Positions 2,815-39,792 of a stretch of 64,000 bases of DNA are shown piece by piece; the first letter of the stretch is position 1; every line of letters starts with the position of its first letter. A program made the position numbers and the translations under genes. The notes beneath the pieces are model-generated. The model did no database searches, had not been told where the DNA came from, and saw only the letters and a list, made by a program, of their open reading frames with translations. The stretch is from Oscillospiraceae bacterium (GTDB lineage: Bacteria; Bacillota; Clostridia; Oscillospirales; CAG-272): positions 2,216 to 66,215 of the forward strand of contig SVQY01000007.1 in the NCBI GenBank assembly GCA_015065135.1, given 5' to 3'.

Positions 2815-3344
2815 ACCGTCTCCTCCCGAATAATAGCCATTCTGGTTACATCGCAGAATTTTCCATCCACAAAAATATCATCCTTCAAAACGCCCTCGAT
2901 CTCAAATCCCGCCTTTTCGTAGCTACGGATCGCACGCTGATTATCCGAAATAACACGAAGATACAGCTTGTGCAAGCCTAGCTCCTCGAAGGCAAAACGG
3001 ATGGCCAGCTTAGCAGCATCGGTGCCGCATCCCTTACCAAGTGCTACATGCTCACCAATAAAAATGCCGTATTCTGCGTTTTTGTGCACGGGATCAATGC
3101 TTTGCATATACACCGAGCCGATCGGCATATCGTTTTCGCGCATATAAATGATAAATTGTGCTACTTTTCCGGTTTTGACCTTGGTCTCTAACCAATTCAG
3201 ATGTTCGGCAGGTGTAATATCCTGTCTATAAATAAAATATTGCTTGACTGCCTCGCTATTTCGCCAACGCAGCACCATTTCGGTGTCCGCCTCAGTGATC
3301 GGACGCAAATAGATGTTTTCGGTATATAACTCCATTATGCTCAC
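2811..3344 (-). CDS. GNAT amino-sugar N-acetyltransferase (PseH/RimJ-like)
   Basis: WRNS, AEYGIFIGE, GKGCGT, NQRAIRSYEKAGF; overlaps the rffA stop. Confidence 0.8.
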   Translation of the reverse strand: MSIMELYTENIYLRPITEADTEMVLRWRNSEAVKQYFIYRQDITPAEHLNWLETKVKTGKVAQFIIYMRENDMPIGSVYMQSIDPVHKNAEYGIFIGEHVALGKGCGTDAAKLAIRFAFEELGLHKLYLRVISDNQRAIRSYEKAGFEIEGVLKDDIFVDGKFCDVTRMAIIREETV

Positions 3345-4471
3345 ACCTCAAAAAAAGCTTTGACCGCTTCGCAGATCTGTGCCACATCTGCAGCGCTGAT
3401 GCCATAATACATCGGCAGTCGCACCAAACGATCGCTTTCTGCGGTAGTGTACTGATCTACTCCATCAAAACGACCAAATTTGAGGCCAGCCGGTGCACTA
3501 TGCAAGGGTACGTAATGGAACACCGCCATAACTCCCTTCTCTTTCAAAAAGCGGATCAGCGCGGTGCGCTCCTCGAGATCTTTACACTTGAGGTAGAACA
3601 TATGTGCGTTATGCACGCAGTCCGCAGGAATGGTCGGCAGCGTGACCTTGCCCGCCTTCTCCAGGGGAGCAAATGCCTCGTGATAGGCATTCCAGGTGGC
3701 CAGACGGTCGTTGTTGATCTCATCCGCCTTCTCCAGCTGCGCCCACAGGTAAGCAGCATTCATATCGCTGGGCAGATAGCTATCGCCAAAATCCACCCAG
3801 GTGTATTTATCCACCTGACCGCGGAAAAACTTAGCGCGGTTGGTGCCCTTTTCGCGCAAAATCTCGGCGCGCTCATTATAGGCAGGATCGTTGATGACCA
3901 ATGCTCCGCCCTCGCCCATAGAATAGTTTTTCGTCTCGTGGAAGGAATAGCATCCAAAATCACCGATAGTGCCGAGCGGACGGCCCTTATAGGTGCTCAT
4001 CACGCCCTGCGCGGCATCCTCCACGACCTTCAGACCGTGCTTTTTGGCGATGGCCATGATGGTATCCATCTCACAAGCCACGCCCGCATAGTGCACCGGC
4101 ACGATCACCCTGGTCTTTTCGGTAATAGCTGCCTCAATCTTTGTCTCGTCAATGTTCATCGTATCGGGGCGAACGTCAACGAACACCAGCGTTGCGCCGG
4201 CCAGCACAAAGGCAGTCGCCGTGCTGGAAAAGGTAAAGCTGGGCAGGATCACCTCGTCACCGGGCTTCAGATCACACATCAAAGCAGCCATATCCAGTGC
4301 GGTGGTGCCGCTAGTGGTCAGCAGGACCTTCTGCGCACCAAAGCGCTCCTCAAACCATTGATTGCAGCGTTTGGTAAACTGACCGTCGCCACAGATCTTG
4401 TGCGCGTCGATCGCTTGCTTTACGTAATCAAGCTCGGTGCCCACGTACGGGGGAATATTAAAATAGATCAT
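3341..4471 (-). CDS. rffA: dTDP-4-amino-4,6-dideoxygalactose transaminase
   Basis: GDGQFT, EDAAQG, SFHETKN (PLP Lys), EKGTNR, QVDKYTW, VFHYVPLHS, typical of WecE/RffA. Confidence 0.9.
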   Translation of the reverse strand: MIYFNIPPYVGTELDYVKQAIDAHKICGDGQFTKRCNQWFEERFGAQKVLLTTSGTTALDMAALMCDLKPGDEVILPSFTFSSTATAFVLAGATLVFVDVRPDTMNIDETKIEAAITEKTRVIVPVHYAGVACEMDTIMAIAKKHGLKVVEDAAQGVMSTYKGRPLGTIGDFGCYSFHETKNYSMGEGGALVINDPAYNERAEILREKGTNRAKFFRGQVDKYTWVDFGDSYLPSDMNAAYLWAQLEKADEINNDRLATWNAYHEAFAPLEKAGKVTLPTIPADCVHNAHMFYLKCKDLEERTALIRFLKEKGVMAVFHYVPLHSAPAGLKFGRFDGVDQYTTAESDRLVRLPMYYGISAADVAQICEAVKAFFEV

Positions 4472-4499
4472 TTTTCTTCCTTTCTATCATCCGGACACT

Positions 4500-6260
4500 T
4501 TAAGATAATGGTGTGATCACGGCGTTGGATACATCCCAAAAGAAAACATATACCCAATATTCGCCGTCGCTGATCGGATATATCTCCGGCATACGATTCA
4601 CAGTCCCGTTGGGTTCTTCCAAATAGTATGGGGCATTTATCCAGTTCTGTGCAAAAACATAACACCTGGCATTTATTTCATCCCACACAATAACACTATC
4701 TTCTCTGACATCCAAATACAGTTGGGGTAAATCGTCCCCTTCTGAAATATTTACAAAATCAACCTGTATATCATACAATGCGGCATATCGCTCCCAATAT
4801 CCGTCATGTATAGCCAACAAATTTCTTGTTTGATAGATCGTGTTTGATTGTACACGCTGATTGTGACAGACCCGGATCGTGTCGGTCTCAAAAACACCTT
4901 CTATCATTTCAAGCCGCTGATAATCCTCGGCTTGTACACGCCCAACTACATTATTAAACGCCTGTTGTGGAATCAGAACGAGGCCTATACAAATGCAAAT
5001 CAATGCCGCCCCTGCAAAACGCACTTTTTTCAAGGCATATTGAACAAGGCAACACAACAGCGCAATGATAATAATTGCTGCAGCATATAAAAAATAACTA
5101 ACCGGTAATGACGTGAACGACGATGAATTGACGGCTCCTTGATACATAGTAGAAACGGCATTCGGTAACGAAGGGAGAACCATATACACAAGGCACACGG
5201 CAATACCGATCAAATAAAGCCACCAGTTCTTCTTTTCGGTTTTTTGAGCCGCAAAGTAAAAGATAGAAACACCTGCACCAAGCACAACGAAAAGCAAGCC
5301 GAGGCTTAACAGGCTTTGTGCATTCAGCAGTCCGCCATTGTACAGTTCCATCTGATATTGAGCAACATCGTTTAAACAGTAATATCCCGGAATTGCGGAC
5401 ACAAACAAGGTTTTGATAATTTCAAAGGAACTGGAAAAAGATACGAAGCCAATCTGATTACCCGAATACGCCGTGGGAAAGAGTGCCGTCAAACCAAAAT
5501 ATAAAGCCACATAGGCCACGGCTGTAACAATATGCCAGACACAGGCCTTTACCATATTTAAGAAGGAAAGCCTTTCCTTGGTTTGATAACATCGGTAAAT
5601 ATACACAAGTGGGAATAAGAACGAATAGACAATCAAAAATTCATATCCGCACATTGCCAGGAAAAACAAAATAGCTGAACAAGCAACATTGCGTTTGGAA
5701 TGCTTAGAATGATCCAAACAACTCATATAGCATAACAGCGAGCCTTGCAAAAAAAGCATTGGTATAGCAACCAAAGGCGTAAAAGCCGCAGGTGCCGCAT
5801 GTTGAAAGGTAAGCGGCATTAAAACCACGAACAAAAATGCTGTCAGAAAAGAAAGCGTCTTATTTTTGCAAAGCCTATATAACACATACCCCAATAAAAC
5901 GGCATTTACCACAATCAAAAAGGCACAGATGCATCTGTTGAAAAACATATTGTCGCTTAAAAAGCCTAAGTATCGCCAATCAGCTAAAAGCCCCAACAAT
6001 CTTCCCTTTTCAAAGTGCACCTTTGTGTTTTCCCAAACAAGATGCCAAAAACCAATTTTACGATCAAAGCGATTCTGCAACTCATCATTTAATGTCACGC
6101 CTTGACCTAGCATCGGCCATAATGCCGCAACCATAGCGATCAAAGCAAGAATATAAACGGCTCCTTTTATTGGTGTGATTTGCTTAATCTTTTCACGCAC
6201 TTTTTTCCATTGAAGGGCAAAAAAAGACTCTCGTTTATCATTTGTTTTTTCTTCTGTCAT
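4500..6260 (-). CDS. Multi-pass membrane protein, probable GT-C (GtrII-like) glycosyltransferase
   Basis: More than 10 TM segments, early NDE acidic motif and GR motif, YE after a TM, soluble C-terminal tail; AT-rich; context of a GtrB-like gene. Confidence 0.55.
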   Translation of the reverse strand: MTEEKTNDKRESFFALQWKKVREKIKQITPIKGAVYILALIAMVAALWPMLGQGVTLNDELQNRFDRKIGFWHLVWENTKVHFEKGRLLGLLADWRYLGFLSDNMFFNRCICAFLIVVNAVLLGYVLYRLCKNKTLSFLTAFLFVVLMPLTFQHAAPAAFTPLVAIPMLFLQGSLLCYMSCLDHSKHSKRNVACSAILFFLAMCGYEFLIVYSFLFPLVYIYRCYQTKERLSFLNMVKACVWHIVTAVAYVALYFGLTALFPTAYSGNQIGFVSFSSSFEIIKTLFVSAIPGYYCLNDVAQYQMELYNGGLLNAQSLLSLGLLFVVLGAGVSIFYFAAQKTEKKNWWLYLIGIAVCLVYMVLPSLPNAVSTMYQGAVNSSSFTSLPVSYFLYAAAIIIIALLCCLVQYALKKVRFAGAALICICIGLVLIPQQAFNNVVGRVQAEDYQRLEMIEGVFETDTIRVCHNQRVQSNTIYQTRNLLAIHDGYWERYAALYDIQVDFVNISEGDDLPQLYLDVREDSVIVWDEINARCYVFAQNWINAPYYLEEPNGTVNRMPEIYPISDGEYWVYVFFWDVSNAVITPLS

Positions 6261-6280
6261 CTCGAATCTCCTTTGCTATA

Positions 6281-7402
6281 TCAATGCTCTTTCGCTTTAG
6301 GATCCCTGCCCTTTAATGCCCACTTTTTACCTAACAAAATGTTGACATACGGAATCATCATAAGAACTTTCCATACACCAATACAGAACAATAGCGAAAC
6401 AACCGAATAAAAGAACCAACACCAACCGTGCGCCTGCGCGCTTGCAGGTAATAAAAACGCTTGGGTATCTTGTAGTGTAGTAATTTTAAATAGACACAAC
6501 AAAAGAGTTGCAATTTTAAATCCGATAAAATGGAAGAATAGCACACCAAGCGTTGAACTACCGACCACGCAGAAGGGCTTTGTGATCTTAGGGCCAAGTC
6601 TGCCGATCAGCTCGGAAATACCAAAAACAAATAAAATACCACCAATCGGCACAAAAAACGTCATCCATACATTTGGATAGACACGGGAGGGATAATCAAC
6701 CGTTGCGCCGCCCGCGACCTTGCCGCCAAGCCATTTTGCAACAAACATCCATAGCCCGGCAACAGCATAAATGGCATAACACCATTTTTGCTTTCGAAGC
6801 CATTCCAAAGCATTGCATTTGCTCAGAAAAACACCCATACCAAAAAACACTTGGCCAATAAGTGCCATATCGAAGCAAAATGTTTGTCTATACCCGTTCT
6901 TTTGCAGATAATAACCAATAAGATATACGACAACCGTAGCAACCGCATAAACCGCAATGTGCGCCTTTTCGGTTGCTTTCCAGATCAAACGCTGAATAAT
7001 GAACACAAAGAAAAGTGCAATCAAGAACCATGCGGCACCCAGCATAGGGTCCGTGATACCGTGTATCAAAAAATTTTTGATACACGTCAATATACTGACC
7101 GCGCCATCCTTGAATGTGATATCCGGGGAAAAAATGGCAATTATTGCACGTACACATCCGATCCCCACCACCATACTCAACAACGGCAACAATAACGTCC
7201 TGGCTTTATCAATAACAACACTTTCCAAATCTTTCTTCCAGATCTTGGAGGTGTATCCACTGATGAAGAAAAACGCCGCCATATGAAATTGATATATATA
7301 ATGATTGAAAAGTCCCGTTGCGTGACCGACTACCACCAAAATAATGCAAATTGCCTTATATACATCGATCCATATGATCCGTTGCTTGGCTGCCTGTTCC
7401 AT
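6281..7402 (-). CDS. Acyltransferase family 3 (O-acetyltransferase)
   Basis: RIIWID..K...I.LVVVGH, FHMAAFFFISGY, WFL.ALF; about 10 TMs. Confidence 0.9.
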   Translation of the reverse strand: MEQAAKQRIIWIDVYKAICIILVVVGHATGLFNHYIYQFHMAAFFFISGYTSKIWKKDLESVVIDKARTLLLPLLSMVVGIGCVRAIIAIFSPDITFKDGAVSILTCIKNFLIHGITDPMLGAAWFLIALFFVFIIQRLIWKATEKAHIAVYAVATVVVYLIGYYLQKNGYRQTFCFDMALIGQVFFGMGVFLSKCNALEWLRKQKWCYAIYAVAGLWMFVAKWLGGKVAGGATVDYPSRVYPNVWMTFFVPIGGILFVFGISELIGRLGPKITKPFCVVGSSTLGVLFFHFIGFKIATLLLCLFKITTLQDTQAFLLPASAQAHGWCWFFYSVVSLLFCIGVWKVLMMIPYVNILLGKKWALKGRDPKAKEH

Positions 7403-7425: not shown

Positions 7426-8715
7426 TTATAACACTCTATCATCCACAAACTCCAGCAGGCTCTGGTACTGCGCGGTGGCGGCGCTCTCACCGGGGAGCAG
7501 GATGGGCGTGCAGCCGGCATTGATGCCGCATTGCACGTCGTTATCGCTATCGCCTACCATATAGGAGGCCGCAAGATCGATGTGGAAATCCTTTGCCGCC
7601 TGCAGCAGCATACCCGCCTTGGGCTTTCTGCACGCGCAGTCTATCTTCAGCTCGGGTATTTCACCCTCATACCCTTTGTGGGGATGATGCGGACAGTAAT
7701 AGATGGCATCCACATAGGCGCCCTCCTGCCCCAGCAGCGTTTCCAGCTTGTTGTGGATCTCCTGCAGCGCCTCGACCGTCACCTCGCCTCTGGCGATTAC
7801 CGGCTGATTGGTGACCACGATGGCAAGATAGCCGGATTCGTTGATCTTACGCACCGCCTCGGCAACGCCGGGCAGCAGCTCCAGCTCCTCGATATTGCGC
7901 AGAAAGCCCACGTAACGGTTCAGTGTACCGTCGCGATCCAAAAACACGCATTTCTGCGGATTGGACAGATTTTTGGCATGTACCTTGCCCGAGCGGATAT
8001 CCTCGGTGACCGCAAAAAAGCGATCCGGTGTACCCATATCCTTCACATATTCGGGGCTATCATATACGTACAGCTCGCCGGTGGGGATCAGGGGCTTAAG
8101 CACCTCCCTATCCAGATCCACCTTCTTCAGCTCACGGAAAAGACCCTGCTCAAAGACCTTGGGCGAGAAGAAATGCAGTCCCGCATTCACGCGGTTGCGA
8201 TACCACTCGCGCGGATCCTCCTTGTGTAACCAATTGGTCACCCTGCCCTCTTTATCTGCCATAATAATACCGCTATCGTACGGATGACTGTTGGGATGGG
8301 TAAAGAGGGTGGCCACACCGCCACGCGCCTTGTGGAAGCGATAGAAGCGCTCCACGTCGATATCAAAGATCACGTCGCCACACAGCAGCAGAAAATCATC
8401 GGTCAGCTGCTCCTTTAAGAGAAACAGCGCGCCGGCGGTGCCGAGCGGCTCGGTCTCGACCACATAGTCGATCCGCACGCCAAAGGGCTTACCGGTAGCG
8501 GGCGAAACACCGCTGCCGTCGCCAAAATAATCACGCACCACGTGACCCAGATGACCGATCACCAGGATCACGTCGTCATAGCCTTGATCGCGCAGACACT
8601 CCAATTGATACTCCAGGATAGGCTTTCCCAGAATGGGGATCATAGGCTTCGGCACCTCGGCATTGACCGAGGCGATACGGGTGCCCTTGCCGCCTGCCAT
8701 AATCACCGTTTTCAC
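7426..8715 (-). CDS. Fused heptose-1-phosphate guanylyltransferase (HddC) / heptose-bisphosphate phosphatase (GmhB)
   Basis: N-terminal MAGGKGTR..PKPM, EPLGTAG, DMGTP; C-terminal HAD FLDRDGT, TNQPVIARG, CPHH, C.CRKP, VGD. Confidence 0.88.
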   Translation of the reverse strand: MKTVIMAGGKGTRIASVNAEVPKPMIPILGKPILEYQLECLRDQGYDDVILVIGHLGHVVRDYFGDGSGVSPATGKPFGVRIDYVVETEPLGTAGALFLLKEQLTDDFLLLCGDVIFDIDVERFYRFHKARGGVATLFTHPNSHPYDSGIIMADKEGRVTNWLHKEDPREWYRNRVNAGLHFFSPKVFEQGLFRELKKVDLDREVLKPLIPTGELYVYDSPEYVKDMGTPDRFFAVTEDIRSGKVHAKNLSNPQKCVFLDRDGTLNRYVGFLRNIEELELLPGVAEAVRKINESGYLAIVVTNQPVIARGEVTVEALQEIHNKLETLLGQEGAYVDAIYYCPHHPHKGYEGEIPELKIDCACRKPKAGMLLQAAKDFHIDLAASYMVGDSDNDVQCGINAGCTPILLPGESAATAQYQSLLEFVDDRVL

Positions 8716-9733: not shown

Positions 9734-12700
9734 TCAGCACAAATCAAATTCGGGTCCAATGACCTTGACTGCGTTATCGGGAGAATAGTTTTCTTGAATA
9801 TAGCGAATGGCATCGCGGCTCATTCTCTCCAGCGCCGCACCATCGTTATACAAGGCTGCAATGGTCTCGGCCAGCTTTTTGGCGTCGCTCTCCACCGCCA
9901 TGACCTGCTCGGCATTGGGAATGCCCTCAGCTCCGGTGGGCGTGGTCACAACAGGCGTGCCGTAGCGCATAGCCTCGATCACCTTACCCTTGATACCGGC
10001 GCCGTAGCGCAGAGGCACCAAAGAAATGCGACAATTGTGATAGAAGCCCTCCAACTGCTCATCGGTCACAAAGCCCTCCAAGATGAGGTGCTCATTTTCC
10101 AGCTCCTGCACCTCGTTCGGCGCATTGGAGCCAAGCACATGGATCTTAATGTCCGGCAGCAGCTGCAGCAGCTCGGGCAAGACCTCCTCAGCCAGCCACT
10201 TGACCGCATCGACGTTAGGACGATGCGAGAAACCGCCAATGAACATGATATCCTGTCTGCTTTCAAAATCGTAGCCTTCAAAGGTCACGTTTTCAAACAA
10301 ATACGCAGGGATGGCCTTGACGCGGATCTCGGGATCGATGGCGTGGATCTCCTCTACCTCCACGTAGGAGGGATAGTAAGCCATATCCGACTGGCGCATC
10401 AGATCCAGCTCCTTGGGTTTCCAATCCTCAGAGGACTTGCGGAAGCTCTCGTCACCGGTGATCTCAAACTCGCGCATCTCACGCAGGAAGGCCAGATCGT
10501 GTCCGTAATACATAATGCGTGCGTTGGTATTTTCACGCAGGAACTCCAGATAACGGGGGGCGATATGCGGACGGTTCAGGAACACGTAATCAATATGCTC
10601 CGCGTTCTTTTTGACCCATTCCTTCCAGTTCTTTGCGTAATCGGGGCCGTAAAGCACCTCGATGCCAAGCTGCTGCAGCACCGTGGTATAGGGCTCGTGA
10701 CGGTAGAAATTATCGCCAATAAACTTGACGTTAAAGCCGGCTGCGGCAAACATTTTCAGATATTGGAACACCGTGCGGCTGCCCGCATCTCTGTCAAACT
10801 GCGGCACGTAGTGATCCACCATCAGCAGTGTTTTCTTTTCGTAGGAATAATCGCGCGCCTGGAAAACATTCACGCTGGTTTCGGGATGCTTTTCCAGCTC
10901 CGCTTCCCACTTTTTGTAGAATTTCTCGGTATTCTCGATCTGATATTTTTTCTGGCCGGAGGCGGTGTCGGTGCCATTGGAAACGCCCTCGAAATGCACC
11001 ACCACGGAAAGCGGCTGATACATCACGCGGTAGCCCATTTTACGCACCGTAAAGGCCAGGTCGCTATCCTCGCAGTAAGCCGGTGCAAAATACTCATCAA
11101 AGCCGCCGATCTCCTCCCACAGCTCGCGGGAAAGCATAATGGCAGCGCCCGAGATGTAGTCCACCTGCTTGACGTAATTGAACTCGGGCTGCGCGGGGTT
11201 CTGACCGTTGCCGTAATTCCACGCTGTGCCGTCACGCCACAGAATGCCACCGGCCTCCTGCAGCTTGCCGTCGGGGTAGATCAGCTTGGAGCCGACCATA
11301 CCGATATCCTCTGCGCTTTCGATCAGCTCGACCAGCGGCGCCAACCAATTTTCCAGCACCTGTGTATCGTTGTTCAAAAACAGAACGTACTTCCCCTTTG
11401 CGTGCTTGGCCGCATTGTTGCAATTGCGCAGGAAGCGTAGATTCTCGGGATTGGTGATGCAGCGCACACCGGGCAGGATCTCCTCGATCCTGGTGGTCAG
11501 GTCGGTGGAGCAATCGTTGGCGATCAGGATCTCATAGGTAATATTCCCCGTATTGCGCAGAATGGATTCCACACAACGGTAGGTGTACTCAAACTGGTTA
11601 TAGACCGGGATCACGATCGAGACCTGCGGCACCTCCCATTGGGGGATCGGCAGCACGGGGTAATCCTCAAAGGTCTTTTCGCGGCTCATATCCACCGCAA
11701 CAATGTCGGGCGGCGTGATCGGCAGCAGCGAAGCGCCCACGTTGCCCACAACATTATCCATCAGTCGGCCGGCATATTCGGTCTCGCCGCTCTTCATCAG
11801 GCGGAAGAACTTTTTGATGCGGCGCTTGGAGATGCTGCGCATAAACAGGATGGGATGACGGAACATCTTCCAAAGCAAACGGCAGAACAGCGCACGTCTA
11901 CTGCCGCGCGGTACAAAGAAACGGAACACCTTGGAGAACTTTTGCCCCAATCTGTAGCTGCGGCTGTTCAACAATCTGTCTATCTCGTTTTTCAATTGAT
12001 TTTCTTTATCGCGCAGCTGCTGACATTCGCCCTCCACACAGGCGATCTGCTGCTTCAGATCACGCTCACTCTGCAGCAGAAGCTCAATATGCCCTCGCTG
12101 ATTGGAAAGCTGAATCTGCATTTCTTGCAAGGATTCCGTGTGCAAAGAAGCTGATGGTCTTTGGGGAAGCTTTTCCACAGATTGAATACCGTTTGCCTCA
12201 ACGTACTCTTTTTTTTGCGCCGTTAAAACAAACTGATAAATTTCGCCTTCCAAACGTCTCTTCAGCATTCCGTACAATTGCTCATCGGCAGGAAAAGCCG
12301 CGCTCTGATATTGCTCGGTGCTTGCCGTAGCAGCTTCAACGCAATCCTTTACAACAATGCGTAAGCCAGCTTCCTCAAAAAACTCGTCTAGGTTATTAAT
12401 GCCCCAAAAATGGATGTGTGTATCATCCAAAAGCCCAATAGAGGTGTAGTCCCATCGACCGTCCAACAACTTGGCTACGATATCATTGTGACCAACATTC
12501 GGCAATGAAATCAGCATAACGCCTTCATCCTTAAGCAAGGCACAGGCAGCTTGCAACACCCGAATAGGATCTCGCAAATGCTCCAATACATCAGCAAACA
12601 TAATACAATCGAAGCGAATGTCTGCAAACTTTTTCTGCCAATGATCCTCCATCAGATCTCCACAAACGCCGTCTGTAGCATACTGAATTGCTTGATCAAA

Positions 12701-35889: not shown

Positions 35890-35952
35890 AGACGGTCTCC
35901 TTTTTTAGCGAATTGGGCAAAAAGATTTTTTCAAGGCAAGCTTCGTTCGGGC

Positions 35953-35994
35953 TTACGGTTTTTGTTTCGTCAGACGATCGACAAGCTCAACGTG
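35953..35994 (-). repeat. Displaced rlmD 3'-end copy (HVELVDRLTKQKP*)
   Basis: CACGTTGAGCTTGTCGATCGTCTG, 18/24 identical to the live rlmD end by manual count. Confidence 0.6.
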
Positions 35995-36043
35995 AGCGAG
36001 GAGCGCAAAAGGTATATTTTCCATTCCCCAAAAGCTGCCTGTT

Positions 36044-36514
36044 TTATATCCAGTGCGTCACTTGCGAATATGGGATTTTTTCCATACTCACCAACGAATA
36101 AGTTTTTGTTTCATATTCACAAAGACAGTATTCGTAGCCATCCTTTCGCCATCTTTGCACAGGTACATATAGCATTTCTCCATCGCTTGAAAAACTGCCA
36201 TATACGTCTATAGCCTCGTAAAAACGCGGAAGCGTAACTCTCAGCTTTTGTGTAAAATCTTCTAAGGAGATGATATAGAAATGCTTGCCATTTTCCAACG
36301 CAAAGAGTTCTGTTTCATCAGGCTTTACATCTCCCGTATACAAATAATTGTATCTTTTGATTTGGTTGAGCAAAGTACCCGTTTTCTTATCCGATATAAC
36401 GACGCTACCGCCCGTAATATGAACAACAAACTTATCTGTATGTATCGTAAAATTCCAATGCAAGTCCAAATCAAACGTTCTGATCCATTTCCCGTCAGAA
36501 ATCGTTTTATTCAT
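36044..36514 (-). CDS. Hypothetical protein (beta-rich, AT-rich cargo)
   Basis: Start moved to MNKTIS after AAGGAGG; no family recognised. Confidence 0.7.
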   Translation of the reverse strand: MNKTISDGKWIRTFDLDLHWNFTIHTDKFVVHITGGSVVISDKKTGTLLNQIKRYNYLYTGDVKPDETELFALENGKHFYIISLEDFTQKLRVTLPRFYEAIDVYGSFSSDGEMLYVPVQRWRKDGYEYCLCEYETKTYSLVSMEKIPYSQVTHWI

Positions 36515-36521
36515 ATGACTT

Positions 36522-36557
36522 TTACCTCCTTGCGAGACAAACGACACTCTCAACGTA
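36522..36557 (-). repeat. Displaced rlmD 3'-end copy (YVESVVCLARR*)
   Basis: TACGTTGAGAGTGTCGTTTGTCTC, 20/24 identical to the live rlmD end by manual count. Confidence 0.75.
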
Positions 36558-36621
36558 GGTCAAGAGAGCAAAAGGTCTCAAAATCAGTCAAAAACGGGGG
36601 TTGTAAAGCCAAAAGGTATAT

Positions 36622-37134
36622 TTACTTCCCGCGATTTTTCTTATAGTTAACAACAAACAAAAGTGCGCCTACCGATATTGAGAGTGCCATAATCGTTGGA
36701 CCAACAATATGTGCGGTCTTTTCGTTTTTGCTATATTCATTCAAAACATCGTTGAGTGATAAATATGTTTCACCGTTATATTCAAGGGCGCATATTTTTC
36801 TTAATCCACCACTTTTTTCAAAATAAGTAATCGTAAGTTCTTTGCCTATCTGTAGCTCTTCAAATAATCTTCTATCAATGTTGTCATAGCATATTCCTGT
36901 TGCCTCAAAGTAAGAATTATCTTCAAATCGCACATCGAAGTAAGAACCTTTAGAATTTCCAAAAATATTATCGTACCATTTCTCATCGTATTGATTGAAT
37001 TTAGACACAATACCCGTTTGCTGTTTTAATCCCGTCGGCTGTTGATATGAGAAAGTGAATATTAAACTAAGCACTAAAACAAGCAGCAGCACAATTGCTA
37101 TTAAAATGTTAAAGGCTACAAATCTGTTTTTCAT
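36622..37134 (-). CDS. Hypothetical membrane protein (N- and C-terminal TM; AT-rich cargo)
   Basis: RBS AAAGGAG; two hydrophobic helices around a soluble domain. Confidence 0.75.
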   Translation of the reverse strand: MKNRFVAFNILIAIVLLLVLVLSLIFTFSYQQPTGLKQQTGIVSKFNQYDEKWYDNIFGNSKGSYFDVRFEDNSYFEATGICYDNIDRRLFEELQIGKELTITYFEKSGGLRKICALEYNGETYLSLNDVLNEYSKNEKTAHIVGPTIMALSISVGALLFVVNYKKNRGK

Positions 37135-37210
37135 AAGACTCCTTTCGATATGTTATACCGTACTGCTGTAAACTGAACTTTCGGGTCTTGCTCAAAACTC
37201 ACATTTGTCC

Positions 37211-37564
37211 TTATCCGTTTTCCTTTGCGGTGGTGATGGAAGCGATGAGCAGTTTGCGTATCTTACTGCATTTTGCGAACATATCCTTATATTCTTCCTC
37301 GGTTATCATGTGCGTATCTTTGAACAGACCGAGCCAATAGTCTGTTTCGTAGCACTCTTTAAGTGCGATTTGAAATTTGTTAATAAAGTCTGCTTTGCTT
37401 GCCGCATAGTTTGCTTCGTGAATATTCGCACCGATGCTTGTGCCGCTGCGTAATATTTGGTTTAGCAAAACATTGCTTTTGCGGTTTTCTTTGATATCGG
37501 TGCAAAGATTAACGATATCAACAGCAAATTGCTTTGACAAATCGACTAAAAAGTTTTCTTTCAT
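37211..37564 (-). CDS. Four helix bundle protein (23S rRNA IVP-like / TIGR02436)
   Basis: S.QFAVDIV, QILRSGTSIGANIHEA, S.ADFINK..IALKE..ET.YWL. Confidence 0.9.
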   Translation of the reverse strand: MKENFLVDLSKQFAVDIVNLCTDIKENRKSNVLLNQILRSGTSIGANIHEANYAASKADFINKFQIALKECYETDYWLGLFKDTHMITEEEYKDMFAKCSKIRKLLIASITTAKENG

Positions 37565-37585
37565 CGTAAAACCTCGCTACTAGAA

Positions 37586-37787
37586 TGATTTGACACTTTG
37601 TGTCATGAATTGATGCTATTGCATCATGATTTCTCGCTACGCTCCATGAATTGAATTGCGTGTCCAAACTTATGCGCCCGCAGGCGCAATTCATGGCGAA
37701 GCCAATTCATGAGTGCAACGCACTCAATTCACGCGCTCGCGCAATTCATTGTTGAATCTGTCGTTTGAGACAAACGACAGATTCAAC
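37586..37787. repeat. Array of short hairpins separated by TGAWT / ATTCA pentamers, ending in a 17-bp perfect inverted repeat
   Basis: Hairpins at 37591-37605, 37611-37626, 37673-37688, 37694-37704, 37710-37726, 37733-37742 and 37751-37787. Confidence 0.85.
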
Positions 37788-39131
37788 GTGGCCAGTGCGC
37801 GGGAAAAGATCAACGGGCGTTACAACACCGATCTCATAGCCGAGGTCGCGCAGGATGGCGCAATCGCGGGCGAGGGTATCAGGGCCGCAGGAGACGTAGA
37901 CGATGCGAGGCACCTCGCGTGCGGCGAGGAACTCCAGCAGCTGGCGGTCACAGCCCTTGCGGGGCGGATCCAGGATCACCACGTCGGGGTGCAGGGTGCC
38001 GCGCTCCGCCTCCACGGGGGCAAGCAGCCCCTCCGCATTGGCGGCATCACCGCAATAAAAGTGGGCGTTTTCGATACCGTTCAGGGCTTTATTCACATTG
38101 GCGCATTCCACGGCGGCGGGCACGATCTCAATACCGATGACCTCCCCCGCCCGTTGTGCCATCGAAAGTCCGATGGTACCCGCGCCGCAATAAAGATCCA
38201 GCAAAAGTCCCTTTCCGTCAAGGCCTGTCCGCTCGGCGGCAAGCCCGTAAAGCAGCTCCGCCGCATCGTGGTTGACCTGATAAAAGGATGCCGGCGCAAT
38301 GCGGAAGCGCTTGCCGCACAGCACGTCCTCTATGTAGGGCTTGCCGTAGACCGTGCGATAGCGCTCCCCCAGCACCACGTTGGTGCGACGGGTGTTCTCG
38401 TTGATCATCACCGAGGTCACCTGCGGAAATTTTTGCAATAATATATCTGCAAACTCCTGTTCTTTTGGCAAAGACTTGCTGTTAATAACAGGACAGACCA
38501 TCAGCTCGCCCGTTCCCACCCCTTGGCGCAGGTAGAGATGGCGAATCACGCCCTTCCCCGTCTCCTCGTCATAGGGCAAAACACCCAGCTTGGTGTAAAA
38601 ATCGCAGAACGTATCGAGAATTTCGCCAAAAACAGGGGGCAAAAGCGAGCAATCGGAGCAAGGCACGACCCTGTGGGTTTTCTGGGCGTAAAAGCCGCCA
38701 AAAAGGCCGTTTTTACCACCCGTTATGGGGTATTCCGCCTTGTTGCGGTAGCCCTTGATCGCCCCCGTGGTCTGCACCGCCTCCACCGTCACATCGGCAA
38801 GCCCCGCCTTGCGGAACATTTGCACGACCAGCTCACGCTTCAGCGCCAGCTCCTTTTCATAGGTCAGATAGCGATAAACGCAGCCACCGCAGGAGGCGGG
38901 CGCTGCGCAATAGCCGTCGGCACGGTGGGAGGAGGGGGTCACCACCTCCAGCACACGACCCACGGCAAAGGTCTTATTCACCTTAATGATCAGTGCCCTG
39001 ACGGTATCCCCCGCCACGGCGCCTGCCAGAAAGACCGCTCTGCCGTCCGGGGCGTGGGCAACGCCGCACCCCAGATTGTTCAGATCGGTCACCTCCAGCA
39101 AAAGCTCGCTTCCCTTTTGCAGCTCAGGCAT
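37746..39131 (-). CDS. rlmD: 23S rRNA (uracil-1939-C5)-methyltransferase
   Basis: Start moved to MPELQ; TRAM domain, C...CGGC, YRNK, SFYQVN, DLYCGAG, DPPRKG, YVSC, DLFPRTGHVE. Confidence 0.93.
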   Translation of the reverse strand: MPELQKGSELLLEVTDLNNLGCGVAHAPDGRAVFLAGAVAGDTVRALIIKVNKTFAVGRVLEVVTPSSHRADGYCAAPASCGGCVYRYLTYEKELALKRELVVQMFRKAGLADVTVEAVQTTGAIKGYRNKAEYPITGGKNGLFGGFYAQKTHRVVPCSDCSLLPPVFGEILDTFCDFYTKLGVLPYDEETGKGVIRHLYLRQGVGTGELMVCPVINSKSLPKEQEFADILLQKFPQVTSVMINENTRRTNVVLGERYRTVYGKPYIEDVLCGKRFRIAPASFYQVNHDAAELLYGLAAERTGLDGKGLLLDLYCGAGTIGLSMAQRAGEVIGIEIVPAAVECANVNKALNGIENAHFYCGDAANAEGLLAPVEAERGTLHPDVVILDPPRKGCDRQLLEFLAAREVPRIVYVSCGPDTLARDCAILRDLGYEIGVVTPVDLFPRTGHVESVVCLKRQIQQ

Positions 39132-39792
39132 AGAATTCCTCTCCGTTTTCCAGGCAAAGCGCGGCAAGCGAGCCGCCCTGCAGCACACCGCAGTCAATGC
39201 GGATAATGCCCTCCTCATATTCGATCTTGCCGCTATCGGTAGGCGTATGACCTACTACCAGCGTACGATCCGGGAAGAAGGCAGAACCTGCCGGCGCGGG
39301 GGTGAAAAAGTCCTCCGGCTCATAATCGTCAAGGGCGGTATCGGGGTCAAAATCGGCAATGCCCGTATGCACCAGCACAAAGGACTTGCCCTTGGTCTCT
39401 ACCTCCTCGAACAACACGAATTCGGAAAGATAATCCAACACGCCCTCGCGCATATCGTCATCCAAGGCGCGGAAGCCATCCAAGGTGGGCTTGCCGCCAT
39501 CATTTGCCCAAGCGGTCATTTCGGCGGCGAACTCAGGGTCGGGCATCGAGCCCTCCTTCAGCATCTTATCAAAGCCGGCAAGCATCCGCAGTGCCAGCAG
39601 CTCGCGCTCTCCCGCCACAGGATACACGTTGGCACGCATGCTCATGTCGGTCAGCACCTCCATGCTCTGCTCACCGTAGTCTACCACGTCGCCAAGGACG
39701 TAAAGCACGTCGCTCTCCTTTAAATTGATCTTCTGAAGCAGGCTGTTGTAGCGCTCCCAATCTCCATAAATACCGGCAGTTACGTAGGTCAT
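39124..39792 (-). CDS. Calcineurin-like metallophosphoesterase (PPP-like) with degenerate metal ligands
   Basis: LGDVVD.G, VH.G, GHTP and IDCG present; DIHG reads GIYG and GNHE reads GERE. Confidence 0.75.
   Translation of the reverse strand: MTYVTAGIYGDWERYNSLLQKINLKESDVLYVLGDVVDYGEQSMEVLTDMSMRANVYPVAGERELLALRMLAGFDKMLKEGSMPDPEFAAEMTAWANDGGKPTLDGFRALDDDMREGVLDYLSEFVLFEEVETKGKSFVLVHTGIADFDPDTALDDYEPEDFFTPAPAGSAFFPDRTLVVGHTPTDSGKIEYEEGIIRIDCGVLQGGSLAALCLENGEEFYA

What the first reader, a model, noticed from the sequence alone, without database searches (positions are those of the whole stretch)
37211..37790. Four-helix-bundle gene preceded by a regular hairpin+pentamer array: candidate RNA-protein or mobile module
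Seen: the ~200 bp between rlmD and the four-helix-bundle gene is built from short GC-rich hairpins of different sequence joined by a constant pentamer. The right half reads TGCGCC-cgca-GGCGCA ATTCA TGGC-gaa-GCCA ATTCA TGAGTGC-aac-GCACTCA ATTCA cGCGC-tc-GCGCa ATTCA. The left half uses the reverse-complement linker: TGATT TGACAC-ttt-GTGTCA TGAAT TGATGC-tatt-GCATCA TGATT ... TGAATTGAAT. Stems vary but stay paired while linkers are constant, so the halves could also pair into a multibranch fold. Established: 23S-IVP-like four-helix-bundle proteins and the structurally related DGR Avd form homopentamers, and Avd binds nucleic acid. Inference: the array is a multivalent RNA or ssDNA ligand for this ring protein (autoregulatory leader), or the structured end of a small non-autonomous mobile unit. 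I know no named element with this architecture.
Basis: partly seen in the sequence, partly recalled or inferred. Interest (0 to 1): 0.85.

Follow-up and report, generated by a model that had tools for sequence, protein, structure and literature searches.

The report
Hairpin-ladder repeat beside four-helix-bundle gene
A 165-base string of small hairpins joined by one repeated seven-letter linker proves to be the regular companion of a widespread gene of unknown function, which gives that protein its first candidate nucleic-acid target.

Summary
Window 37585-37750 holds 4 + 5 copies of one linker (ATGAATTG and its complement) separated by short GC hairpins of unrelated sequence, after a 17-bp hairpin on the last rlmD codons and 21 nt before a PF05635/TIGR02436 four-helix-bundle (4HB) gene.

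It does have a named relative. One arm of such arrays is Rfam's Gut-1 RNA motif (RF01706), although this copy does not match that model.

In 61 related genomes, 48 of 67 full-length 4HB genes carry the same architecture directly upstream (34 by detector, 14 by eye), each with a different linker heptamer. The heptamer follows the 4HB protein tree. Sixteen more genes have plain inverted heptamer repeats.

The array+4HB unit is about 96% conserved between genomes whose rlmD is 55-68% identical. Half of the 4HB genes sit 200-300 nt behind a tRNA gene. Most arrays, however, are orphans, including a second copy after rpsI in this genome.

Best reading: a mobile two-part module of structured repeat plus cognate ring protein, akin to 23S IVS elements and REP/RAYT. 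Here it is the first unit of a low-GC cassette island at the rlmD 3' end. Binding itself is inferred, not shown.

The parts
37746..39218 (-). rlmD-type 23S rRNA (uracil-5) methyltransferase. Its 3' end is the insertion point.
   Evidence: Pfam tRNA_U5-meth_tr plus TRAM. Orthologues lie upstream of the same module in L183 and L041.
37751..37787 (-). Perfect hairpin (17-nt arms, 3-nt loop). The 5' arm is the last rlmD codons (HVESVVCL). The 3' arm differs between genomes to match the local rlmD.
   Evidence: compared with L041, L172, L181 and L182.
37659..37750 (-). Distal (F) arm: AATGAATTG hp1 (37732-37742), TGAATTG hp2 (37711-37725), ATGAATTG hp3 (37695-37703), ATGAATTG hp4 (37674-37687), then a spacer whose 3' end repeats the hp1 3' arm.
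   Evidence: Long-range helix F1+hp1 5' arm: spacer end+R0 has 95% of cells paired and 31 double changes against 10.6 in shuffles.
37585..37658 (-). Proximal (R) arm: double linker CAATTCAATTCATG (37645-37658), unpaired segment (37633-37644), AAATCAT, hp6 (37612-37625), AATTCATG, hp7 (37592-37604), AAATCAT.
   Evidence: The same plan, including the same variant linkers, is found in the second copy C30:59798-59957.
37211..37564 (-). Four-helix-bundle gene (117 aa). The start codon lies 21 nt after the last linker, with only a ribosome-binding site between.
   Evidence: PF05635 E 1.6e-26 and TIGR02436 E 4.3e-30. PDB 2RLD E 5.6e-29, an entry with 5 chains.
37127..37210 (-). 'A-box' leader of the next cassette. 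This is where the stretch shared with other genomes ends.
   Evidence: blastn and alignment with G007:C28 and G018:C60.
36622..37134 (-). Cassette ORF, 170 aa. It looks like a membrane protein by eye and has no family match.
   Evidence: no tblastn match in the related islands.
36528..36623 (-). 'B-box' junction with a copy of the rlmD 3' end (36534-36557; 20 of 24 nt identical; reads YVESVVCL).
36044..36553 (-). Cassette ORF (169 aa as listed; the true start is probably further in). No family match.
35890..36043 (-). Last junction of the island, with a weaker copy of the rlmD 3' end (35969-35994; 18 of 24 nt) and one AAATATACCTTTTG box (36006-36019).
   Evidence: GC rises from 0.34-0.43 to 0.5-0.6 at about 35850 and 37800.

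Best explanation
The array is one copy, with a new linker variant (AUGAAUU), of a large family of dyad-symmetric 'hairpin-ladder' repeats. Each has two arms of 4-5 identical 7-8-nt linkers in inverted orientation, with a different small GC hairpin between each pair. One arm of the family is already catalogued as the Gut-1 RNA motif.

The family is the cis partner of PF05635 four-helix-bundle genes. Array plus gene form a small horizontally mobile, probably selfish, module. It settles just behind hairpins at the 3' ends of tRNA, rRNA and other operons. It is a relative of the S23p-bearing intervening sequences of 23S rRNA, and it leaves many gene-less copies.

In this window the module lies at the rlmD 3' end, as the first unit of a low-GC cassette island.

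Shown: the architecture, the association with 4HB genes, co-variation of linker with protein clade, horizontal mobility, and the position of the module.

Inferred: the homopentameric 4HB ring recognises the repeated linker (five copies in the proximal arm), and the hairpins present or space the linkers in single-stranded or extruded nucleic acid. Binding would then control the module's own expression or processing, or help it propagate.
For: 1. Association. 34 of 67 full-length 4HB genes from 61 related genomes have such an array within 330 nt upstream by an automatic detector, and 14 more by eye. Nine have a tandem-heptamer stem upstream, 7 have the ORF between inverted heptamer runs, and 3 have nothing. 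The detector flags 16 of 21,358 windows of this genome.

2. Specificity. About 17 linker heptamers were labelled (ATGAATT, ATGAAAT, GTGATGT, GTGAAGT, GTTATAT, GCGATAT and others). They map on the 4HB tree with 21 changes for 20 labels (minimum 19; shuffled mean 52.6; 0 of 200 shuffles as low), and sister clades differ by single bases.

3. Linkers are kept, hairpins are not. All linkers within an array are alike. Of 206 inter-linker segments, 191 are different sequences, yet 73% form stems of 4 bp or more against 20% of shuffles. The two copies in this genome share every linker and no hairpin.

4. A long-range helix (first linker + hp1 5' arm with spacer end + first R linker) covaries within the ATGAATT family. 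It recurs as a 9-17-nt complement in about 20 of 34 arrays of all linker types, and always in the arm distal to the gene.

5. Mobility. The 4HB protein is 95.7-96.6% identical in L041, L183 and L186, where rlmD is 54.6-68.0% identical. A 78% relative lies inside the centre of an array at another locus (L038). A 63% relative has an array upstream at a third locus (L190).

6. Position. 28 of 57 4HB genes have a same-strand tRNA gene within 700 nt upstream, against 0.5% of strand-positions in this genome.

7. Homologues are ring pentamers. PDB 2RLD has 5 chains. Xanthomonas S23p is described as a homopentameric toroid in passages of PMC4990558 and in the title cited in PMC10053308.

8. Other phyla. 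All 10 PF05635 loci looked at in Chitinophagaceae, Bacteroidales and Planctomycetota MAGs lie between inverted tandem 7-8-mers (judged by eye).
Against: No binding was tested, and no tool here docks protein on nucleic acid.

Linker-clade congruence is also what simple physical linkage would give, and many loci are orthologues, so the counts overstate independence.

Most arrays have no 4HB gene. Genomes G024, G025, G030, G031, G035, G036 and G038 carry ATGAATT arrays, but their 4HB genes, where typed, have other linkers. This genome (84% complete) has one 4HB gene and orphan arrays of two further linker types.

A 117-aa helical bundle has no known catalytic motif, so it cannot move DNA by itself.

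In 12-16 of the 34 detected arrays the gap to the gene is 40-134 nt and, where read by eye, holds a promoter-like -35/-10. The array is then not in the 4HB mRNA.

It is not settled whether the active form is RNA, ssDNA or dsDNA.
Confidence: 0.5

Rival explanations
1. A generic REP/MITE-like intergenic repeat. It spreads and persists on its own, or through host enzymes, at terminator-proximal sites. 4HB genes are a separate small mobile gene that lands in the same kind of site, with no molecular interaction between the two.
For: Orphans dominate. Only 6 of 120 loci from the linker scan hold a 4HB ORF. Gut-1 gives up to about 32 matches per genome against 1-5 4HB genes. The R1 model hits 11 of 36 genomes of the genus, a patchy spread. 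Arrays stand beside unrelated genes and between ORFs that look like prophage genes by eye.
Against: Independent landing would not give linker types that track the 4HB tree. It would not give a fixed orientation with the helix-bearing arm distal to the gene. It would not explain 64 of 67 4HB genes carrying some form of inverted heptamer architecture. Copies in one genome share linkers but not hairpins, unlike copy-and-paste MITEs.
Confidence: 0.2
2. A structured RNA in the sense of Gut-1: a non-coding RNA, or a 5' leader or intergenic processing/stability element (for instance an RNase III substrate) that acts on neighbouring transcripts. The 4HB gene would be just one frequent downstream gene.
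For: Compensatory changes occur in hairpins and in the long-range helix. Weinberg 2010 rated Gut-1 a certain RNA (Table 1 passage). One orphan subfamily has TGnTATAAT directly before the first hairpin, seen by eye in L014, L060, L067, L098, L104, L113 and L118. In 18 of 34 arrays only a ribosome-binding site separates the array from the start codon. Metatranscriptome contigs cover the proximal arm at summed depth 88-151 in three of the four runs (X2, X4, X6; 9 in X1), where rlmD reads 0-38, and one contig of depth 104 joins it to a 4HB gene. The S23p-bearing IVS stem is cut by RNase III (PMC4990558 abstract and passages).
Against: Loops are mirror-symmetric. On the sense strand the distal arm has TNC triloops (36 of 49; GNA 0) and the proximal arm has GNA (24 of 66; TNC 7), so one RNA strand does not carry the favoured loops in both arms. 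Many arrays lie between a terminator-like hairpin and a promoter-like site (by eye). The contigs cannot show starts, ends or strand, and DNA carry-over is not excluded. A uniform linker is not needed for folding alone.
Confidence: 0.15
3. A recombination (att/attC-like) site: a folded or duplex site at which low-GC gene cassettes are inserted or exchanged.
For: Both copies in this genome sit exactly between a core gene (rlmD, rpsI) and low-GC genes. Elsewhere, near-identical array-bearing repeats of 300-460 nt flank low-GC cargo, and a similar array pair (upstream flank alike by eye) holds different cargo in G012 and G018. Conservation of structure but not sequence recalls integron attC (recalled).
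Against: No recombinase lies next to it; the genome's two tyrosine recombinases are on other contigs. The other junctions of the same rlmD island use a different repeat (A/B boxes with a copy of the rlmD end) and carry no array. Most arrays flank ordinary genes. The direct repeats are longer than the array, as plain homologous recombination would give.
Confidence: 0.1

Closest known systems
Gut-1 RNA motif (Rfam RF01706; Weinberg et al. 2010, PMC2864571)
   Same: Three small hairpins joined by a constant heptamer (consensus GUGAAAU). The model hits sister arrays next to 4HB genes: L160 at 62 bits and L177 at 53.8 bits, with a gathering score of 50. It is found in 39 of 61 related genomes.
   Different: The window copy is not matched even at E <= 10 because its linker is AUGAAUU. 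The Rfam model covers one arm only. The passages I read call it a gut-metagenome non-coding RNA of unknown role and mention neither a second arm nor 4HB genes. Its Additional file 1 is closed and may say more.
23S rRNA intervening sequences carrying an S23p ORF (Coxiella, Leptospira; PMC4990558)
   Same: Same protein family; the ORF goes with a long inverted-repeat stem; low GC; horizontally acquired; regarded as selfish; tied to stable-RNA transcription units.
   Different: The window module is not inside an rRNA gene. Both arms lie upstream of the ORF rather than around it, and the arms are broken into heptamers by hairpins. In L038 and the type II loci the ORF does lie inside the stem.
REP/REPIN elements and their RAYT genes (recalled)
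   Same: Many short palindromic repeats per genome and a few copies of one associated gene, with repeat type matched to gene lineage.
   Different: RAYT is a Y1 HUH transposase; the 4HB protein has no known enzymatic motif. REPs are single imperfect palindromes, not ladders with constant linkers. No RAYT search was run here.
DGR accessory protein Avd
   Same: Homologous pentameric four-helix-bundle fold (passage of PMC10053308). Avd works with a structured nucleic acid (recalled).
   Different: No reverse transcriptase was found in this 84%-complete genome. No template or variable repeats were looked for.
Integron attC sites and cassette arrays (recalled)
   Same: Structure conserved, sequence free; stands at borders of promoter-poor low-GC cassettes.
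   Different: No integron integrase nearby. Multi-hairpin ladder instead of one bulged hairpin. Most copies are not in cassette arrays.

Membership tests
Gut-1 RNA motif (RF01706) | Reaches the Rfam gathering score (50 bits) | tested here: not met
   No Gut-1 match on window 37540-37810 at E <= 10 nor on 36000-39000 at E <= 1. Sister arrays L160 (62 bits) and L177 (53.8 bits) pass.
Gut-1 RNA motif (RF01706) | Three or more short hairpins joined by one constant heptamer linker | tested here: met
   consensus shown.
PF05635 / TIGR02436 four-helix-bundle protein | Profile match above the curated cut-off | tested here: met
   93.1 bits against a cut-off of 33.8; 104.1 bits against 24.
PF05635 / TIGR02436 four-helix-bundle protein | Homopentameric ring | not tested
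   Only by homology: 2RLD (5 chains) and literature passages. No fold or complex job was run.
23S rRNA intervening sequence (IVS) | Inserted in a 23S rRNA helix | tested here: not met
   No rRNA match in window 36000-39000. The flanking genes are rlmD and cassette ORFs.
23S rRNA intervening sequence (IVS) | ORF enclosed by terminal inverted repeats that form a stem | tested here: not met
   In the window both arms lie upstream of the ORF. The feature is met in L038 and in type II loci.
Diversity-generating retroelement (Avd role) | Adjacent reverse transcriptase | tested here: not met
   PF00078 finds nothing in the whole genome, which is 84% complete.
Integron / attC | Integron-type tyrosine recombinase next to the array of sites | tested here: not met
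   PF00589 matches only on C65 and C86, not on C36.
Integron / attC | R''-L''/L'-R' boxes with extrahelical bases | not tested
   No attC model was available here.
REP/RAYT | Y1 HUH transposase gene flanked by the repeats | not tested
   No RAYT profile search was run. The gene that goes with the repeats is the 4HB gene.
MITE | Near-identical copies with target-site duplications and empty sites | tested here: inconclusive
   Copies share linkers but not hairpins. Near-identical pairs exist only as direct repeats around cargo. No empty-site pair was examined.

The most novel reading that the evidence does not exclude
PF05635 four-helix-bundle rings are sequence-specific nucleic-acid binders, and each ring's recognition heptamer is written, in about ten copies, in the hairpin ladder or heptamer stem next to its own gene.

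Protein plus ladder would then form a previously unrecognised class of mobile element. It homes to hairpins at the ends of tRNA, rRNA and other highly transcribed operons. The 23S rRNA intervening sequences, Rfam Gut-1 and the heptamer-flanked 'four helix bundle' genes of Bacteroidota would all be forms of it.

The mirror-symmetric C(GNA)G loops would mean that the active form is single-stranded DNA exposed on either side of the dyad.
Probability: 0.3. Interest if true: 0.85.

Novelty: new variant of a known kind. Interest (0 to 1): 0.72.

Why it matters
The S23p / 'four helix bundle protein' family is widespread and has solved structures, yet passages of a 2016 paper still say it has no known function. 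Rfam's Gut-1 has likewise had no assigned role since 2010.

Linking the two gives each a partner and a directly testable hypothesis. A purified ring protein can be tested on a 165-nt ladder, and natural linker variants serve as ready-made specificity swaps.

The link also suggests that rRNA intervening sequences are one habitat of a broader element that lives at the ends of stable-RNA operons.

For annotation, it explains a recurrent class of 'CRISPR-like' or 'REP-like' intergenic repeats in gut and rumen Clostridia.

None of my five literature searches returned a paper describing this link. Subscription journals and supplementary files were not searched.

Tried and rejected

Detectors. A first, strict detector (exact 6-mers) missed the window's own array, so I replaced it (then 58). 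A first automatic test of the long-range helix failed wherever the first, degenerate linker was not detected. I replaced it with a longest-complement search and with a pair count on alignment A1 (then 67 and 90).

Consensus fold. RNAalifold pairs F linkers with R linkers, but those columns are invariant. That says nothing for or against a chain of four-way junctions, so I do not rely on it.

Promoter in the array centre. I looked by eye for -35/-10 pairs that would give divergent transcripts and found none convincing. The promoter-scanning tool was not run.

Metatranscriptome contigs. They show array-like and 4HB-like sequence in RNA libraries. They cannot show strand, ends or expression level, and parts without cover mean nothing.

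Other phyla in the linker scan. The matches in Terriglobia, cyanobacteria, an archaeon and others were not verified as arrays. Several are plain tandem repeats (pattern strings). None of the five checked for nearby 4HB genes showed the Clostridia-type ladder.

Not run: protein fold, homo-oligomer job, protein database searches, and phage or plasmid searches.

Names given by eye. Terminase, portal, HicA/HicB-like, barstar-like, IspF, pyrH, LysR, serine recombinase, restriction-modification and 'lipoprotein-like' were read from printed translations. They come from no family search.

Literature. Additional file 1 of Weinberg 2010, which holds the Gut-1 description, could not be read. The NCBIfam and Rfam free-text descriptions were not available.
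Full report
WHAT IS THERE

The gene at 37211-37564 lies on the - strand, so I read the region in that direction. In order:
- rlmD ends at 37746. Its last 13 codons form the 5' arm of a perfect 17-bp hairpin (37751-37787).
- Then come AATGAATTG and four short GC hairpins, each followed by (A)TGAATTG.
- Then a 16-nt spacer and a double linker in the opposite sense (CAATTCAATTCATG).
- Then one unpaired 12-mer and two more hairpins, separated by AAATCATG / AATTCATG / AAATCAT.
- After 21 nt holding a ribosome-binding site comes the start of a 117-aa protein of PF05635 / TIGR02436.

The arrangement is not chance. The 9-mer is not over-represented genome-wide (15 copies, about 12 expected), yet 9 copies sit in two clusters. 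The stretch folds with z = -6.7 (RNA) and z = -7.2 (DNA) against shuffles.

The whole of about 35900-37750 is a 34-43% GC island in a 55.6% GC genome.

A SECOND COPY WITHOUT THE GENE

The genome (88 contigs, 84% complete) has exactly one other array with this linker, at C30:59798-59957. It lies directly after the rplM-rpsI terminator-like hairpin and before a low-GC gene with a lipoprotein-like signal sequence (by eye). No 4HB gene is present there.

The two copies have the same length and the same plan, and even the same variant linkers at the same places. Not one hairpin sequence is shared.

THE FAMILY

- Twenty-six full copies show one plan.
- An alignment of 25 gives compensatory changes in the hairpins.
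- It also supports a long-range helix between the first linker plus the 5' arm of hairpin 1 and the spacer end plus the first reverse linker: 95% of cells paired, 31 double changes against 10.6 +/- 2.8 in shuffles, 0 of 500 shuffles as high.
- A covariance model (R1) finds the family in 15 of 61 related genomes. Within the genus that is 11 of 36, with 1 to about 13 copies each.
- Neighbouring genes are diverse.

THE TURN: NEARLY EVERY 4HB GENE HAS ITS OWN LADDER

PF05635 is found in 38 of 61 relatives. I fetched all the loci and located 67 full-length ORFs with a profile built here. The upstream 330 nt fall into four classes:
- 34 of 67 have an array by an automatic detector (two of these are weak).
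- 14 more have one by eye: degenerate, at a contig edge, split, or in reversed order.
- 9 have the two arms as plain tandem heptamers with no hairpins between them.
- 7 have the ORF between inverted heptamer runs.
- 3 have nothing.

The same detector flags 16 of 21,358 windows of the window's genome, about 11 places, of which 5 are true arrays.

The linker differs from lineage to lineage (ATGAATT, ATGAAAT, GTGAAAT, GTGATGT, ATGATGT, GTGAAGT, GTTATAT, GTTATGA, GTGATAT, GCGATAT, TCGATAT, ATGATAT, ATGGAAT and others). On a maximum-likelihood tree of the 67 proteins the 20 labels need 21 changes (minimum 19; shuffled mean 52.6; 0 of 200 shuffles as low). Sister clades differ by single bases. Kin share labels, so this shows tight co-inheritance at the least.

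Across all types:
- 73% of 206 inter-linker segments form stems of 4 bp or more, against 20% of shuffles, and 191 of the 206 are different sequences.
- The long-range helix recurs as a 9-17-nt complement in about 20 of 34 arrays, always in the arm distal to the gene.
- The detector counts a mode of four linkers in the distal arm and five in the proximal arm. By eye, a degenerate extra distal copy is often present.

The contrast between free-running hairpins and strictly uniform linkers is the main argument that something reads the linker sequence. Folding alone would let each linker pair drift.

IT HAS A NAME, IN PART

Rfam's Gut-1 (RF01706) has a consensus of three hairpins joined by GUGAAAU. 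It hits these arrays: L160 at 62 bits, L177 at 53.8 bits, and six more below the gathering score in the 15 loci scanned. It is present in 39 of 61 relatives, with up to about 32 matches per genome.

The window's copy is not matched even at E <= 10.

The 2010 paper lists Gut-1 as 'human gut only' and a probable non-coding RNA. I read Table 1 and one paragraph; the supplement is closed.

None of five literature searches returned a paper tying Gut-1, or hairpin or heptamer repeats, to this protein family.

MOBILITY AND PLACE

The stretch from the rlmD-end hairpin to the A-box (window 37791-37139) is 82-85% identical in DNA to three other genomes: L186 over the whole stretch, L185 over 37790-37347, and L183 over 37664-37139. 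In L041 the DNA is 69% identical throughout. The 4HB protein is 95.7-96.6% identical there, while rlmD next to it is only 54.6-68.0% identical where it is held in full (L041, L183).

In L041, L172, L181 and L182 the hairpin arm opposite the rlmD codons changes with those codons.

A 78% relative of the protein lies inside the central loop of an ATGAATT array at another locus, antisense, between an 11-nt inverted repeat. That is the intervening-sequence arrangement.

Twenty-eight of 57 4HB genes have a same-strand tRNA gene within 700 nt upstream. Typically the tRNA ends 200-300 nt before the start codon, and no locus without a same-strand tRNA showed one on the opposite strand. The baseline in this genome is 0.5% of strand-positions. 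One further locus follows 23S-5S-tRNA.

In 10 loci from three other phyla the ORF lies between inverted tandem 7-8-mers (by eye).

RNA OR DNA?

Evidence for RNA:
- Covariation in hairpins and the long-range helix.
- A TGnTATAAT box before the first hairpin in one orphan subfamily (by eye).
- Only a ribosome-binding site between array and start codon in 18 of 34 cases.
- RNA-library contigs over the proximal arm at summed depth 88-151 in three of four runs (9 in the fourth), against 0-38 over rlmD. One contig of depth 104 joins the arm to a 4HB gene. These are contigs only, and DNA carry-over is not excluded.

Evidence against a single RNA strand:
- The loops are mirror images. On the sense strand the distal arm has TNC triloops (36 of 49; GNA 0) and the proximal arm has GNA (24 of 66; TNC 7). 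Closing pairs are C-G in 65 of 75 and 72 of 89 hairpins. Orphan copies show the same pattern.
- Each arm therefore carries C(GNA)G or GNRA loops on the strand read from the dyad outward. That fits a dyad-symmetric DNA element, or two divergent transcripts. C(GNA)G is, from memory, the unusually stable DNA mini-hairpin.
- Many arrays lie between a terminator-like hairpin and a promoter-like site (by eye).

I leave the question open.

THE ISLAND

Downstream of the 4HB gene the low-GC region is a cassette array. Each unit has a conserved leader (A-box), one unrelated ORF, and a junction (B-box) that ends in a copy of the last 24 nt of rlmD: 20 of 24 nt and 18 of 24 nt identical in the window.
- G007 has seven such units.
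- G018 has what look by eye like restriction-modification genes between rlmD and the array+4HB unit.
- G012 has a 561-aa ORF that looks by eye like a serine recombinase, next to a core copy.

The array+4HB unit lies between a core copy and an A-box, as if inserted into one junction.

No reverse transcriptase is found in the genome, and no tyrosine recombinase on this contig.

VERDICT

The proposed link to the four-helix-bundle gene is supported as a general rule, although most copies are orphans. 'No named element' is wrong.

The most likely reading is a mobile two-part module whose protein reads the repeated linker. Binding, the active strand and the mechanism of movement are inferred, not shown.

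Noticed in passing
window 35890-37210; L187 (G007:C28) 2900-7350: The low-GC region after rlmD is an array of single-ORF cassettes. Each has a conserved leader (A-box) and a junction (B-box: two AAATATACCTTTTGG boxes plus a copy of the last rlmD codons). There are seven units in G007 and two in the window, with unrelated ORFs. It is integron-like, but no integrase lies nearby.
   Followed up: partly
L189 (G012:C76) 9772-11457 (-): A 561-aa ORF that looks like a large serine recombinase (by eye) ends in a copy of the rlmD 3' core. It suggests an element integrated at the same site.
   Followed up: no
G000 C30:60640-60740: After the low-GC gene that follows the second array there is a run of about nine ACGATA/ACGAAA motifs at 9-11-nt spacing. 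A nearby TTGGTGCAA repeat is also present.
   Followed up: no
G000 C9:19750-19930, C15:19860-20060, C40:4750-4940: Three more hairpin ladders with other linkers (ATGAAGCG; GCGATAT twice) and no 4HB gene. The two GCGATAT copies score 48 bits on Gut-1, just under its cut-off.
   Followed up: partly
L147 4117-4574 and 6217-6673; L148 3936-4256 and 5713-6045; L146: Near-identical array-bearing direct repeats of 300-460 nt flank low-GC cargo (HicA/HicB-like and barstar-like by eye). A similar array pair holds different cargo in G012 and G018.
   Followed up: partly
L145 (G012:C18) 5322-5511, 7669-7869, 10582-10766: Three co-oriented arrays stand between large ORFs that look like prophage terminase, portal and structural genes (by eye).
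   Followed up: no
L095 640-4010: Four half-arrays with the ATGAATT linker. Two of them (693, 3799) run straight into hairpin ladders with the GTGAAGTT linker and a third (2636) into one with ATTTCAT. The half-arrays repeat every 0.8-1.2 kb.
   Followed up: no
L231-L241 (Chitinophagaceae, Bacteroidales, Planctomycetota MAGs): All 10 PF05635 ORFs looked at lie between inverted runs of tandem 7-8-mers, with a different repeat unit at each locus.
   Followed up: partly
L168 2067-2887: One 4HB module follows directly on a 23S-5S-tRNA operon end. This recalls the family's presence inside 23S rRNA genes elsewhere.
   Followed up: no
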